A DNA stretch of 42,810 bases from a virus. This document shows, one piece after another, positions 6,555-41,944 of this stretch. Position 1 is the stretch's first letter. Each line of letters starts with the position of its first letter. Location: the UHGV virus genome UHGV-0330108. One strand, written 5' to 3'. The translations under genes and the position numbers were made by a program. The notes beneath the pieces are model-generated. The model was not told where the DNA came from, ran no database searches, and was given only the letters and a program-made list of their open reading frames with translations.

Positions 6555-6585
6555 AAGGCCCCTTACGGGGCCTTAGTTTTATTTG
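6555..6585. terminator. bidirectional rho-independent terminator
   Basis: AAGGCCCC-TTAC-GGGGCCTT flanked by an A-run upstream and AGTTTTATTT downstream, at a convergent gene junction. Confidence 0.55.
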
Positions 6586-6797
6586 AAGAATATCGCGAAT
6601 TTCTTGTAACCCGCTGGCTCGTTGCGCAGACCGTGTTCGTTAGCAAAACGTTGTATATTGTTAAAGTCATTTTCACCCATTCCGTCCGTATCGAACGTAA
6701 AGAAATTACGTTTGTTCCCGATAAGCACACGGCTTGTGATATCAATGCCGTAAAGTTCTTTGATGGCACGTACAACGTTTGCAGTAGCTTTGTTCAT
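6579..6797 (-). CDS. hypothetical protein (72 aa), isolated minus-strand gene
   Basis: ORF track frame 6579-6896; internal ATG at 6797 preceded by TAAGGAATTTGGAA; a TATAAT-containing 23-mer lies ~33 nt upstream. Confidence 0.5.
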   Translation of the reverse strand: MNKATANVVRAIKELYGIDITSRVLIGNKRNFFTFDTDGMGENDFNNIQRFANEHGLRNEPAGYKKFAIFFK

Positions 6798-6829
6798 TTC
6801 CAAATTCCTTATCTCTCGTTTCGATGTAA

Positions 6830-6852
6830 TGAATAGTACCCTATTATATTGG
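6830..6852 (-). promoter_or_regulatory. promoter/operator cassette TGAATAGTACCCTATTATATTGG (minus-strand TATAAT plus palindrome GAATAG-N4-CTATTA)
   Basis: Perfect TATAAT on the minus strand overlapping a 16-bp palindrome; the identical 23-mer recurs at 16043-16065. Confidence 0.45.
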
Positions 6853-6927
6853 TGTCTGCAAACTATTTGTTTACGTATTCCAGTTATTCCACTCAATTGT
6901 AAATGTTGGAATAAACTATTCGAATAG

Positions 6928-6956
6928 TTGACTTTTCACTAAAAATGTGCTAAGCT
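6928..6956 (+). promoter_or_regulatory. putative sigma70-like promoter (TTGACT-N17-TAAGCT, TG-extended) next to palindrome AACTATTCGAATAGTT
   Basis: -35 is a good match, -10 is weak; palindromic half-sites overlap the -35. Confidence 0.3.
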
Positions 6957-7180
6957 CCACCTGAGCTTGTGAAGTATGAACAAGCGACCGCGGCGCGGGC
7001 AGGTAACGGAGCGGGACGTAAGTCCTGAGTGTAGTTACGCTGACGCGTTCGGAAGGGCCATACTCTATTGCTTGTGTAAAAAGTAACTGGTTTACTGAGA
7101 TTACGCCGTTTCTATGTTTAAATGATAAGGACTAGCGCCCCGCTTTATGGCGGGGCTTTACTTATCGAGAAAGGAGAAAC

Positions 7181-7567
7181 ATGAATCTTAAAGCAACTGT
7201 CGTAGCTGGGGCGTGTTTCATCATCCTGGCTTACGCACACGGCATCTACCAGTATCGCACCGGCTGGAACGAAGGCCGGGCGAATCTCGTTTCGCGGCAA
7301 CAGCAGAAAGCACAGGCTGAGTTAGCGAAGAAAACACAACGGCAGCAGCAGGATGAATCAAAGGCCGCGGCCGCTGACAACGAAGGCAAGACGAAATCAG
7401 AGGTAATTACCCGTGAAGTCGTTAAGTACATTAGAACGCCTGGTCGCAGCGTGTGCACTTTCGATAATGCTCGCGTCCTGCTCAAGTCCCGCGCCGTCGC
7501 AAACGCCAATTCCATCCCCGGATACGACGATGATGCAGCCACCGTGCAAACTGGCAGCACCAAGTAG
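7181..7567 (+). CDS. putative i-spanin (Rz-like)
   Basis: N-terminal TM helix (ATVVAGACFIILAYAHGIY) then a charged, Q/A/K-rich periplasmic region; AAGGAG RBS; contains an embedded +1-frame lipoprotein ORF. Confidence 0.6.
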   Translation: MNLKATVVAGACFIILAYAHGIYQYRTGWNEGRANLVSRQQQKAQAELAKKTQRQQQDESKAAAADNEGKTKSEVITREVVKYIRTPGRSVCTFDNARVLLKSRAVANANSIPGYDDDAATVQTGSTK

Positions 7568-7676
7568 CGACGCTGACGAAGATTTAGCCATCGACGTTCA
7601 GAACGCCGAATGTGCACGGCAACTGAGGCTGAAAGTGTTCATGTTGCAGGATTACGTGAGGAATATTCTGGAATAG
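7413..7676 (+). CDS. putative o-spanin (Rz1-like lipoprotein), overlapping the i-spanin gene
   Basis: Signal peptide with lipobox LASC, then a proline-rich mature region (SPAPSQTPIPSPD...MMQPPC); starts inside 7181-7567 in another frame. Confidence 0.6.
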   Translation: MKSLSTLERLVAACALSIMLASCSSPAPSQTPIPSPDTTMMQPPCKLAAPSSDADEDLAIDVQNAECARQLRLKVFMLQDYVRNILE

Positions 7677-7758
7677 TTGCCTTGCATGTTGGAATAATTT
7701 ATTCTTGACATGTAAATCCGGGTGGCCCGGATTCCAACGTCCAGGGGACATACTGACT

Positions 7759-9512: not shown

Positions 9513-9528
9513 GGTTAAGCTATAATCG

Positions 9529-9556
9529 AGAGGGACTTCGGTCCCTCTTTTCATTT
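9529..9556 (+). terminator. rho-independent terminator after the major capsid gene
   Basis: AGAGGGAC-TTCG-GTCCCTCT followed by TTTTCATTT. Confidence 0.6.
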
Positions 9557-13916: not shown

Positions 13917-13950
13917 AACTAAGGCCCCAAACGGGGCCTTTTTCTTACTC
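13917..13950. terminator. bidirectional rho-independent terminator cassette
   Basis: AAAACT-AAGGCCCC-AAAC-GGGGCCTT-TTTTCTTACTC; the minus-strand gene's stop codon lies in the T-tract. Near-identical copy at 25239-25277. Confidence 0.65.
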
Positions 13951-16042: not shown

Positions 16043-16065
16043 TGAATAGTACCCTATTATATTGG
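16043..16065 (-). promoter_or_regulatory. promoter/operator cassette TGAATAGTACCCTATTATATTGG, identical to 6830-6852
   Basis: Exact 23-mer repeat with minus-strand TATAAT and the palindrome, directly upstream of the island's first gene. Confidence 0.45.
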
Positions 16066-25238: not shown

Positions 25239-25277
25239 AAAAAAACTAAGGCCCCAAACGGGGCCTTTTCTTTACTC
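25239..25277. terminator. bidirectional rho-independent terminator cassette
   Basis: A9-CT-AAGGCCCC-AAAC-GGGGCCTT-TTCTTTACTC; core identical to 13917-13950; contains the stop codon of a minus-strand small gene. Confidence 0.65.
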
Positions 25278-36983: not shown

Positions 36984-37012
36984 TTGCACATCCCAACATA
37001 ATAGGATACTAT
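36984..37012 (+). promoter_or_regulatory. putative promoter (TTGCAC-N17-TACTAT) with palindrome TAATAGGATACTATTC over the -10
   Basis: Same hexamers, spacing and operator placement as 38498-38526; ~35 nt upstream of the 37046 gene; coordinates approximate. Confidence 0.45.
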
Positions 37013-37045
37013 TCACTTATCGAAACAAGACAGAGGAGTGGGGGT

Positions 37046-40773: not shown

Positions 40774-40813
40774 ATCCTCCAGTTACTGCATACTTAATAC
40801 GCACCTGGAGGAT
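40774..40813 (+). promoter_or_regulatory. inverted repeat ATCCTCCAG-N22-CTGGAGGAT predicted to sequester the holin RBS
   Basis: The downstream arm contains the GGAGG 7 nt upstream of the holin TTG start; the upstream arm contains the complementary CCTCC. Confidence 0.4.
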
Positions 40814-40818
40814 TCATC

Positions 40819-41127
40819 TTGGATAAATTTACTGAAACAGTTACGGGGTGGCTTCTCGCTGCCGCACTAGCCGGAGGGGTAATCGGACTACGACAACATA
40901 AGTCCGTTATTTCTGGCCCTATCGATGGCTTCTGCTTTATCGCAACCGGCTTCACTTGCGCCGTATTTGGCGCACCCCTCGCGGCTCAATGGTTCGGCAT
41001 TACCGGGGAACGCGAGATAGCTGGCCTCGGATTTATCATCGCTGTCCTCTGGATGCCCATCTATTCTCGCCTTTCTGGCATCGTCGCCGGAGAATACATC
41101 GCACGTCGAGGAGGACCGCATGACTGA
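40819..41127 (+). CDS. putative holin (three predicted TM segments)
   Basis: TTG start with GGAGGA 7 nt upstream; three hydrophobic helices; sits upstream of the endolysin. Confidence 0.55.
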   Translation: MDKFTETVTGWLLAAALAGGVIGLRQHKSVISGPIDGFCFIATGFTCAVFGAPLAAQWFGITGEREIAGLGFIIAVLWMPIYSRLSGIVAGEYIARRGGPHD

Positions 41128-41392
41128 GCTATTCTGGTTTGTCGTAATGCTGGCAATGGGCGCTTCGTCCCTGTTCAACGTGTATAATGAACGTGTGGGC
41201 GACGGATTATTTGGCCGTGTGCTCTATATCCTGACCGCTATTGTCTGCGCCGCAGGATGTATCCACCTGTTACAGGGCAGCATGTCACCTACGCTGCCTG
41301 AGACATTAATAACATTAGTTGCGCTGCGTCAGATTCGTCAGGCGTGGTTGTCGTACGGAGGACATAAGCGTGTCTCGAAACATTTCAGATAA
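41120..41392 (+). CDS. second lysis-cassette membrane protein (holin/antiholin-like, two TM segments)
   Basis: ATG overlaps the holin stop; hydrophobic helices LFWFVVMLAMGASSLF and VLYILTAIVCAAGCIHLL. Confidence 0.45.
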   Translation: MTELFWFVVMLAMGASSLFNVYNERVGDGLFGRVLYILTAIVCAAGCIHLLQGSMSPTLPETLITLVALRQIRQAWLSYGGHKRVSKHFR

Positions 41393-41855
41393 TGGATTGC
41401 ATTTTACCGCCGCGTTCGAGGGATTCCGCGGAACTGCGTACCGCGCGACGCCGAACGAGAAGTATCTGACCATCGGCTACGGAAGCTATGGTCCGCACGT
41501 TAAGACGGGCCAGACCATCACCCCGGGGCAGGGCCTCCTGTTACTGAATCGCGATATGGCTAAAGCCGTAGCTGCGGTTGACGCAGCAGCTCACCATTCA
41601 CTGACACAGGCACAGTTCGACGCCATGTGTGACCTTGTATACAACGCGGGGGCTGGTGTGATTGCCGCTACTACCGGTACGGGCAAGGCGCTGCGTTCTG
41701 GTGATATCGCGACGCTGCGGGCTAAGCTGACGCTGTTCATCAACCAGAACGGCAAACCGTTACTCGGCCTGCGTCGCCGCACGGCTGGACGGCTGGCGCT
41801 GTTCGATGGTAAACCGTGGCAGGAGGCAGAGGTTATTGGGAGGGCTGTTAAGTGA
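41370..41855 (+). CDS. endolysin (phage lysozyme, GH24-like)
   Basis: ORF track frame 41319-41855; GTG at 41370 with GGAGGA 7 nt upstream; motifs ISDNGLHFTAAFEGFRGTAY...TIGYG and C-terminal GLRRRTAGRLALF. Confidence 0.85.
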   Translation: MSRNISDNGLHFTAAFEGFRGTAYRATPNEKYLTIGYGSYGPHVKTGQTITPGQGLLLLNRDMAKAVAAVDAAAHHSLTQAQFDAMCDLVYNAGAGVIAATTGTGKALRSGDIATLRAKLTLFINQNGKPLLGLRRRTAGRLALFDGKPWQEAEVIGRAVK

Positions 41856-41944
41856 CAGAGTTTGACTTCATTCTGTTGTCTATAGGCGCTGGTGCGGTAG
41901 TTGGCGTGATTTGGGGTATGATTGGCGGGAGTAGTAAAGGTTGA
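41852..41944 (+). CDS. small membrane peptide (30 aa) coupled to the endolysin
   Basis: Not in the ORF track; GTG overlaps the endolysin stop; GGGAGGG 7 nt upstream; hydrophobic. Confidence 0.3.
   Translation: MTEFDFILLSIGAGAVVGVIWGMIGGSSKG

What the first reader, a model, noticed from the sequence alone, without database searches (positions are those of the whole stretch)
7181..7676. Overlapping Rz/Rz1-like spanin pair located far from the holin-endolysin cassette
The i-spanin candidate has an N-terminal TM helix and charged periplasmic domain; a +1-frame ORF starting inside it has a LASC lipobox and proline-rich mature region. The pair lies between head genes, whereas holin, second membrane protein and endolysin are at 40819-41944. 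It is preceded by a ~220-nt leader with its own promoter-like and terminator-like elements, implying separate regulation from the rest of the lysis genes.
Basis: partly seen in the sequence, partly recalled or inferred. Interest (0 to 1): 0.55.

Follow-up and report, generated by a model that had tools for sequence, protein, structure and literature searches.

The report
Known spanin pair with structured leader
The region encodes the two overlapping proteins that break the bacterial outer membrane at the end of infection; the pair and its position apart from the other lysis genes are already documented for this phage group, but the conserved folded RNA leader in front of it matches no described RNA family.

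Summary
7181-7567 encodes a 128-aa i-spanin (N-terminal membrane helix, long helical charged stalk). 7413-7676 encodes, in the +1 frame from a GTG, an 87-aa o-spanin (signal peptide, lipobox LASC, proline-rich mature part).

Both match spanin PHROG families. Both frames are kept in about 100 related phage and metagenome loci, and the variation sits at the third codon position of the expected frame on either side of the overlap.

It is already known. The window is a Kagunavirus (Guernseyvirinae). The pair belongs to the 'Jersey' overlapped spanin family catalogued in 2018 and is annotated as such in K1ind3 and Shelanagig. A genome announcement for phage Schulenberg, described there as similar to Guernseyvirinae phages, already says the spanins are genetically separate from holin and endolysin. 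On the circular map the separation is about 8 kb, not 33 kb.

The leader (6958-7180) is less ordinary. It is better conserved than the coding DNA, carries many compensatory base-pair changes, and matches no Rfam family. The 'terminator' hairpin is the tip of a longer helix and lacks a U-tract in sister lineages, so it is probably not a terminator. The leader's function is unknown.

The parts
6876..6913 (+). Cluster of three TATTCC/GGAATA hexamers just upstream of the -35 element. It looks like an operator and lies between the leftward and rightward promoters.
   Evidence: In the whole window these hexamers cluster only here and at 7660-7696. The exact 11-mer TGTTGGAATAA occurs only at 6904 and 7687. 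The motif is conserved in the K, J and C1 lineages.
6928..6956 (+). Candidate sigma-70 promoter of the spanin unit: -35 TTGACT, 17-nt spacer, extended -10 TGcTAAGCT.
   Evidence: Read from the sequence. The pattern -35 / TGnTAnnCT is kept in the K, J and C1 lineages. It falls below the threshold of the consensus scan because the -10 matches only 3 of 6.
6958..7180 (+). Conserved structured 5' leader RNA of the spanin mRNA. It has a hairpin P1 (6965-6985), a three-tier hairpin P2 with a GUAA loop (6988-7052), a conserved unpaired stretch (7053-7073), and a 3' helix domain (7108-7180).
   Evidence: Diversity is 0.035, against 0.09 in the adjoining coding DNA. Of 61 proposed pairs, 99% are canonical in 55 distinct sequences and 19 show compensatory double changes. 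In the covariance-model alignment 95.6% of cells are paired, against 81.5% when shuffled and 27-41% when slid. There is no Rfam match. The 36-aa ORF inside it is broken or absent in many relatives.
7137..7156 (+). It is the tip of the 3' helix domain of the leader.
   Evidence: The terminator scan flags it, with tail TTTACTTATC. The tail CUUAUC pairs with GAUAAG at 7122-7127. Sister lineages keep the hairpin through compensatory changes but have no U-tract.
7181..7567 (+). i-spanin gene (Rz type), 128 aa: N-terminal membrane helix at residues 5-23, helical charged periplasmic stalk, conserved Cys92.
   Evidence: phrog_2536 E 2.7e-54. ORF kept at 118-129 aa in the first 54 loci tabulated. Third-position diversity is 0.170 against 0.058 and 0.045. 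Model helix over residues 3-84. Cys92 is invariant.
7413..7676 (+). o-spanin gene (Rz1 type), 87 aa, +1 frame, GTG start: signal peptide, lipobox LAS|C (Cys23), proline-rich linker, conserved C-terminal helix-like segment with Cys45 and Cys67.
   Evidence: phrog_1267 E 2.9e-18 over residues 10-86. GTG with GAGGT 8 nt upstream, and the lipobox Cys, are conserved. In 7568-7676 diversity peaks at the third position of this frame (0.190 against 0.050 and 0.023). The same coordinates are annotated in K1ind3 and Shelanagig.
7660..7705 (+). Second GGAATA cluster and candidate promoter in front of the scaffold gene. It overlaps the last codons of the o-spanin (RNILE stop = AGGAATATTCTGGAATAG).
   Evidence: Conserved in the K, J and C1 lineages.
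40819..41855 (+). Holin / second holin-family protein / endolysin cassette, with no spanin candidate next to it.
   Evidence: phrog_2359, phrog_2508 and endolysin PHROGs. Sequence. The only signal-plus-lipobox ORF of useful length in the window is at 7413.

Best explanation
The region encodes a two-component spanin of the 'Jersey' family, in a Kagunavirus-type siphophage.

Shown here:
- Two overlapping genes, both under coding constraint.
- One product has an N-terminal membrane helix and a long helical, charged stalk.
- The other has a lipoprotein signal with a conserved lipobox Cys, no Asp at +2, a proline-rich linker and two further conserved Cys.
- Both belong to spanin protein families.

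Inferred from established spanin biology (lambda Rz/Rz1, P2 LysB/LysC):
- The i-spanin is anchored in the inner membrane.
- The o-spanin is lipidated and sorted to the outer membrane.
- Their C-terminal parts bind across the periplasm, and disulfide-linked complexes are held in check by the murein mesh.
- Once holin and endolysin (encoded about 8 kb upstream on the same strand) remove the cell wall, the complex fuses or disrupts the outer membrane.

Expression (inferred): the pair is transcribed with the head genes from its own conserved promoter, inside a divergent promoter region. Its mRNA starts with a conserved, folded leader of about 200 nt. In this lineage the 3' helix of that leader encloses the ribosome-binding region of the i-spanin.
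For: ORFs and coordinates. PHROG hits phrog_2536 at 2.7e-54, phrog_1267 at 2.9e-18 and phrog_5672 at 6.7e-30. Weak Pfam DUF2514 hit.

Both frames are kept in the phage and metagenome loci examined, with the lipobox Cys retained under four or five different local sequences. Codon-position diversity matches the expected frame on each side of the overlap. Membrane-helix, lipobox and proline counts. Helical stalk in the model.

Identical gene models are annotated as spanins in K1ind3 GU196281 and, by the Center for Phage Technology, in Shelanagig MK931446. The Jersey family, including K1G, K1H and K1ind1-3, is listed as overlapped i-/o-spanins in PMC6139136. PMC6763661 states the spanins are genetically separate from holin/antiholin and endolysin.

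Leader: low diversity, compensatory pairs, fold z-scores of -3.1 and -3.5. The ribosome-binding region is 27% unpaired, against 62% in shuffled leaders, 0 of 100 shuffles as low.
Against: No experiment: lipidation, membrane topology, complex formation and lysis function are all inferred.

The structure model was made from a single sequence and is unreliable beyond residue 60-85.

In the overlap itself the codon-position signal is dominated by the i-spanin frame, so support for translation of the o-spanin N-terminus rests on conservation of the ORF, start codon, Shine-Dalgarno and lipobox.

Occlusion of the ribosome-binding region is significant only in the K-type leader, not in the J, C or Klebsiella-phage types, so it is not a family-wide property.

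The promoter's -10 matches only 3 of 6, and the consensus scan does not call it.
Confidence: 0.9

Rival explanations
1. The second gene is only the 48-aa ORF from the internal ATG (MMQPPCK...), as many GenBank records annotate it. It would then not be a lipoprotein.
For: Records such as PQ571288, MW331437 and PQ850619 annotate a 144-147-nt 'Rz-like spanin / o-spanin'. phrog_5672 is built on that short form.
Against: The reading frame stays open back to a conserved GTG/ATG that has GAGGT 8 nt upstream. A signal peptide plus lipobox Cys is kept in every lineage despite sequence turnover. phrog_1267 aligns to residues 10-86. Expert annotations use the long form. A 48-aa product without a signal could not reach the periplasm.
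Confidence: 0.03
2. The 223 nt upstream are a separate small RNA gene. Transcription from the promoter ends at the hairpin 7137-7156, and the spanins depend on read-through or on another promoter.
For: A promoter plus a GC hairpin followed by TTTACTTATC is flagged as terminator-like. Conservation is stronger than in coding DNA. The layout resembles the short leader RNA between lambda pR' and tR' ahead of the lysis genes (own knowledge).
Against: In the J, C and Klebsiella-phage lineages the hairpin is kept by compensatory changes, but the tails are UUAGCGUAUAAAG or CUGUUACGAGG, with no U-tract. In this lineage the tail is paired with GAUAAG upstream, and the helix continues down to the start codon. 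No other promoter lies between the hairpin and the ATG 24 nt away.
Confidence: 0.15
3. The 5' domain of the leader (P1 + P2) is a cis-acting processive antitermination RNA, in the manner of HK022 put. It would make polymerase that started at this promoter read through terminators in the long structural operon, for example the one after the capsid gene at 9528-9549.
For: Two stem-loops lie directly after the predicted start site, at the head of a rightward gene block of about 18 kb that contains terminator-like sites at 9528, 13921 and 16734. put RNAs are about 70 nt, have two stem-loops, lie just downstream of promoters and act over 10 kb (PMC9378689).
Against: This is analogy only. No sequence or model similarity was tested or is known. 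The element is larger (about 95 nt). Other promoter-like regions lie downstream (7677-7705, about 16080). Dhillonvirus relatives express the homologous spanins without any leader.
Confidence: 0.1
4. The leader has no RNA function. Its conservation would reflect DNA-level signals of the divergent promoter region, or recent horizontal spread of one module.
For: The same K-type leader, at least 95% identical in 179 of 183 records, sits next to spanin genes that are only 72-86% identical. That pattern fits module exchange. Operator-like repeats lie nearby.
Against: Compensatory double changes occur in several independent lineages, within K and between K and J. Conserved G-U pairs work only on the + strand. 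A marginal covariance-model hit with the same architecture falls exactly in the leader of a distant lineage. Conservation runs about 200 nt beyond the promoter.
Confidence: 0.12
5. The leader encodes the 36-aa protein annotated in some records (6976-7086).
For: An ATG ORF of 36 aa is annotated as hypothetical in MW331437 and PQ850619. It is intact in most K-type sequences.
Against: In at least 8 of 46 distinct K-type leaders the ORF is cut to 9-17 aa, changed in length, or lacks its ATG. No equivalent ORF exists in the 9 J-type leaders. It has no PHROG match. Its changes follow base-pairing, not codons.
Confidence: 0.03

Closest known systems
'Jersey' two-component spanin family (Kongari et al. 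2018, PMC6139136), e.g. K1ind3 ORF6/ORF7 and Shelanagig gp008/gp009
   Same: Same family and same gene model: a 387-nt i-spanin and a 264-nt o-spanin in the +1 frame with a 155-nt overlap, between the head morphogenesis and scaffold genes. Protein identity to Kagunavirus relatives is about 90-94%.
   Different: Nothing material. This is another member. Sister lineages of the same family place the o-spanin start only 8 nt before the i-spanin stop.
Phage P2 LysB/LysC (the overlapped spanin architecture)
   Same: The o-spanin starts inside the i-spanin gene in the +1 frame and runs past its stop (architecture described in PMC6139136).
   Different: It is a different sequence family. P2's genes sit in the lysis cassette (own knowledge).
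Phage lambda Rz/Rz1
   Same: Same parts and presumed mechanism: a type II inner-membrane protein plus an outer-membrane lipoprotein, with periplasmic Cys.
   Different: Lambda Rz1 is wholly embedded in Rz, and the pair follows S and R in one cassette. Only distant profile-level similarity was seen here.
Phage T4 PseT.3/PseT.2
   Same: Spanin genes not located near the holin and endolysin genes (PMC6139136).
   Different: T4's genes are separated, not overlapped, and belong to an unrelated sequence family.
HK022 put RNA and the lambda pR'-tR' leader (for the leader only)
   Same: A folded RNA directly downstream of a promoter, at the head of late or lysis genes (own knowledge).
   Different: There is no detected homology, the size and fold differ, and the function here is untested.

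Membership tests
Two-component spanin (Rz/Rz1 type) | i-spanin: a single N-terminal transmembrane helix, N-in/C-out | tested here: met
   Kyte-Doolittle 1.72 over residues 5-23, with K4 on the N side. Helix in the model. This is a rule-based test, not a dedicated predictor.
Two-component spanin (Rz/Rz1 type) | i-spanin: a mostly helical, charged periplasmic domain | tested here: met
   Model helix over residues 3-84, with 29% charged residues. The C-terminal 45 residues are low confidence.
Two-component spanin (Rz/Rz1 type) | o-spanin: a lipoprotein signal with a lipobox Cys and no inner-membrane retention residue (Asp) at +2 | tested here: met
   LAS|C at residues 20-23, with Ser at +2. The Cys is kept in all lineages under different lipobox sequences.
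Two-component spanin (Rz/Rz1 type) | o-spanin gene embedded in, overlapping or adjacent to the i-spanin gene, with both genes coding | tested here: met
   +1 frame, 155-nt overlap. Codon-position diversity.
Two-component spanin (Rz/Rz1 type) | Periplasmic Cys available for intermolecular disulfides | tested here: met
   i-spanin Cys92 is invariant. o-spanin Cys45 and Cys67 are conserved. Disulfide formation itself is not testable here.
Two-component spanin (Rz/Rz1 type) | Required for outer-membrane disruption; complements lambda Rz/Rz1 | not testable with these tools
   Needs genetics.
'Jersey' spanin family (Kongari 2018) | Sequence homology to the Jersey/K1ind i- and o-spanins | tested here: met
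   phrog_2536 and phrog_1267. 91-95% nucleotide or protein identity to the K1ind1-3 and K1H spanins. Family list.
Intrinsic (Rho-independent) terminator, for the hairpin 7137-7156 | A GC-rich hairpin followed directly by a free U-tract, conserved as such | tested here: inconclusive
   The hairpin qualifies and the scan flags it. However, the tail has only UUU before ACUUAUC, is predicted to be paired, and is not U-rich in the J, C and Klebsiella-phage lineages.
Sigma-70 promoter, for 6928-6956 | -35 and -10 hexamers at 16-18 nt spacing | tested here: inconclusive
   TTGACT, 17 nt, TGcTAAGCT. The -10 matches 3 of 6, so the scan does not call it. The pattern is conserved across lineages. No start-site data.
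Any Rfam family, for the leader | Covariance-model score at or near the gathering threshold | tested here: not met
   No hit at gathering threshold in the window. Only chance-level hits at E up to 10 and, in five other leader types, E up to 5.
Riboswitch or other cis-regulatory leader | Covarying helices plus conserved unpaired nucleotides, coupled to an expression platform that occludes the ribosome-binding site or forms a terminator | tested here: inconclusive
   Covarying helices are present. Conserved unpaired blocks are present. Occlusion of the ribosome-binding region occurs only in the K type. No ligand or binding factor is known.

The most novel reading that the evidence does not exclude
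The ~200-nt leader would be an undescribed class of cis-acting regulatory RNA specific to Guernseyvirinae phages. It would set the amount or timing of spanin synthesis, or of the late transcript that starts there. Possible means are a switch between folds, a bound factor, or action on the transcribing polymerase. That would be a layer of lysis control not reported for spanins in the sources I read.
Probability: 0.3. Interest if true: 0.55.

Novelty: already known. Interest (0 to 1): 0.25.

Why it matters
The spanin pair itself adds nothing new. Its practical value is for annotation: many public records of these therapy-candidate phages truncate the o-spanin to a 48-aa ORF without its lipobox, or swap the i-/o- labels.

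The leader may matter more. Spanins are usually described as simply accumulating until the cell wall is gone. Here, a strongly conserved folded leader with its own promoter, wrapped around the i-spanin start site in this lineage, suggests that spanin dosage or the late transcript is controlled at the RNA level. That is directly testable with reporter fusions.

Tried and rejected
- Programmed frameshift fusing the i-spanin to the C-terminal part of the +1 ORF. Rejected: the i-spanin stop is conserved, and sister lineages have a fully separate o-spanin with its own signal peptide.
- Small protein in the leader. Rejected.
- General sequestration of the ribosome-binding region as the leader's conserved role. 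Rejected as a family-wide feature, because it is significant only in the K type.
- Rfam at gathering and permissive thresholds, on the window and on five other leader types: nothing.
- Structure-aware MAFFT (Q-INS-i) was not usable on the machine, so the K and J leaders were aligned by hand and cross-checked with a covariance model seeded from K-type sequences only.
- That model does not detect the C1 or Klebsiella-phage leaders, and gives only a marginal hit in C3. Homology of all leader types therefore rests on shared short motifs and position.
- Literature searches for transcriptome data or an RNA motif tied to these phages or to spanins found nothing relevant.
- The bacterial-genome collection was not scanned. 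The large protein-database searches were not run, since family assignment was already clear.

Full report
**What the window is.** The 2 kb around the finding is 93-97% identical to many Escherichia phages of the genus Kagunavirus (subfamily Guernseyvirinae). It is 70-86% identical to Salmonella Jerseyviruses. The window is collinear with the circular map of phage Bas70. Its first bases map just downstream of where its last bases would fall, so it is about one whole, circularly permuted genome.

**Check of the observation.** ORFs 7181-7567 (ATG, 128 aa) and 7413-7676 (GTG, 87 aa, +1 frame) are exactly as described.
- The first ORF has its most hydrophobic 19-residue window at residues 5-23, after Lys4. 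Its remainder is 29% charged. A single-sequence AlphaFold model makes residues 3-84 one long helix, confident for the first 60 residues.
- The second ORF has a basic n-region, a 12-residue hydrophobic core, the lipobox LAS|C (Cys23), Ser at +2, and eight prolines between residues 26 and 50.
- Only four of 1133 candidate ORFs in the window pass a simple signal-plus-lipobox rule. The other three are 40-49-aa out-of-frame fragments.
- PHROG profiles call both ORFs spanins: phrog_2536 at E 2.7e-54, and phrog_1267 at E 2.9e-18 over residues 10-86. phrog_5672 covers only the last 47 residues.
- The neighbours are head genes. A Mu F-like morphogenesis protein (Pfam) and a Hoc-like decoration protein lie upstream; scaffold and major capsid lie downstream.
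- Two holin-family ORFs and the endolysin are at 40819-41855, with no lipoprotein candidate beside them.

**Comparative evidence that both genes are real.**
- The i-spanin ORF is 118-129 aa in the first 54 loci tabulated; about 50 further related loci were fetched afterwards.
- The +1 ORF keeps its start, with GAGGT 8 nt upstream.
- Its lipobox Cys is always present although the local sequence varies: MLASC, LSAC, LLSGC and LLNGC.
- In sister lineages the o-spanin instead starts 8 nt before the i-spanin stop, with an unrelated signal peptide (MNKLFLL..ITGC). It joins the same conserved C-terminal half, PCK..DADEDL..DV.N.EC.R.LR..V..LQDY.RN.
- Across 54 distinct sequences, diversity peaks at the third position of the i-spanin frame in 7181-7412 (0.170 against 0.058 and 0.045). 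It peaks at the third position of the +1 frame in 7568-7676 (0.190 against 0.050 and 0.023). The overlap is intermediate.
- Cys92 of the i-spanin is invariant, and Cys45 and Cys67 of the o-spanin are conserved.

**It is already known.**
- K1ind3 (GU196281) annotates the same two gene models as 'putative spanin ... overlapping gene'.
- The Center for Phage Technology annotates them as i-spanin and o-spanin in Shelanagig.
- Kongari et al. 2018 list a 27-member 'Jersey' family, including K1G, K1H and K1ind1-3, as the largest overlapped family for both subunits. They place the FSL_SP-031 group of the same family under 'separated'.
- Dhillonvirus phages carry homologous spanins in the same place, directly after the Mu F-like gene. 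The position between head genes is therefore old.
- On the circular map the endolysin stop and the i-spanin start are about 8 kb apart on the same strand. Small genes, terminase, portal and head genes lie between them.

**The leader.** The minus-strand gene upstream makes 6804-7180 a divergent promoter region.
- Rightward, a -35 TTGACT (6928-6933), a 17-nt spacer and an extended -10 TGcTAAGCT (6948-6956) are conserved as a pattern in three lineages. The consensus scan does not call it.
- The 223 nt from there to the ATG are less variable (diversity 0.035) than the first and second codon positions of the i-spanin.
- They are at least 95% identical in 179 of 183 phage records, including Salmonella phages whose spanins are only 72-86% identical.
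- A second leader type in Jerseyviruses (J) is alignable block by block. Further types exist in GRNsp27-like and Klebsiella phages.
- A hand alignment of 46 K-type and 9 J-type distinct sequences supports 61 base pairs. Of these, 99% are canonical and 19 show double compensatory changes. Several changes arose independently within the K type, in all three tiers of hairpin P2 and in the GC hairpin.
- A covariance model of the 5' domain, seeded only from K-type sequences, finds every J-type leader (E 1e-8 to 1e-10) and exactly one copy per genome.
- On the resulting alignment 95.6% of cells are paired, against 81.5% when shuffled and 27-41% with slid partners. Fourteen pairs change on both sides, against 0-3 with slid partners. 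That alignment is fitted to the model, so it leans towards the structure.
- Conserved G-U pairs place the structure on the + strand.
- With filters off, the model gives a marginal hit (12.5 bits) exactly in the leader of a distant lineage, with the same P1, three-tier P2 and GUAA loop.
- No Rfam family matches any leader type.
- The 36-aa ORF annotated inside the leader is truncated, altered or absent in many relatives.

**The 'terminator'.** The hairpin 7137-7156 is flagged by the scan. However, its tail CUUAUC pairs with GAUAAG at 7122-7127, and the helix continues through UUU/GAA to GUUUCU/AGAAAC next to the start codon. The J type has UAUACG/CGUAUA and GUAU/AUAC at the same places. The sister lineages keep a hairpin there but have no U-tract. 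I therefore read it as the tip of a 5'-UTR helix, not as a terminator, though partial termination in this lineage is not excluded.

**What the leader does.** This is not established. In the K type the ribosome-binding region is only 27% unpaired, against 62% with shuffled leaders (0 of 100 shuffles as low). The other types show no such effect. The rivals, all untested, are: control of translation or stability, an antitermination element of the put kind, and a separate small RNA.

**Verdict.** The finding is correct, ordinary and already documented. The structured leader is the only part not described in the sources I could search.

Noticed in passing
window 6958-7180: The spanin leader is a conserved folded RNA. 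It is less variable than the coding DNA, shows many compensatory pairs, and has no Rfam family. The 36-aa ORF annotated in it is not conserved.
   Followed up: yes
window 6876-6913 and 7660-7696: Clusters of three TATTCC/GGAATA hexamers occur only at these two sites, flanking the spanin cassette. The second cluster is partly made of the last o-spanin codons (RNILE stop). They probably bind a phage regulator.
   Followed up: partly
window 6831-6852, 16044-16065, 36993-37014 (minus strand): A 22-nt element, GAATAGTACCCTATTATATTGG, occurs three times where none is expected by chance. Its reverse complement carries a perfect TATAAT. Each copy heads a transcription unit running away from it, so these are probably the phage's strong early promoters.
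   Followed up: partly
window 6579-6803 (minus strand): A small leftward gene (phrog_7673, labelled 'internal head protein') sits in a slot that differs between relatives. Some have other small ORFs, one has an HNH endonuclease, one has an 855-nt gene, and some have no gene, only a terminator.
   Followed up: partly
window 40776-40819: The holin gene starts with TTG. Its Shine-Dalgarno GGAGGA is predicted to pair with UCCUCCAG 30 nt upstream (9-bp hairpin, z -2.9), which suggests translational damping of the holin.
   Followed up: partly
window 41853-41944: A 30-aa ORF (MTEFDFILLSIGAGAVVGVIWGMIGGSSKG), essentially one membrane helix, overlaps the endolysin stop codon. Its function is unknown.
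   Followed up: no
L001, L002, L003, L053 (public records PQ571288, MW331437, PQ850619, MW790495): Many public annotations start the o-spanin at an internal ATG, giving about 48 aa with no signal peptide or lipobox. One record swaps the i- and o-spanin labels.
   Followed up: yes
L178 1801-2389; L039 1501-2090: Sister lineages of the same spanin family have a 118-aa i-spanin. Their o-spanin starts 8 nt before its stop and has an unrelated signal peptide. L039 combines a K-type leader with this arrangement, so the module boundary lies inside the i-spanin gene.
   Followed up: partly
window 6555-6574, 13921-13940, 25248-25267: The same two-way terminator stem, AAGGCCCC-N4-GGGGCCTT, recurs at three places where rightward and leftward gene blocks meet.
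   Followed up: no
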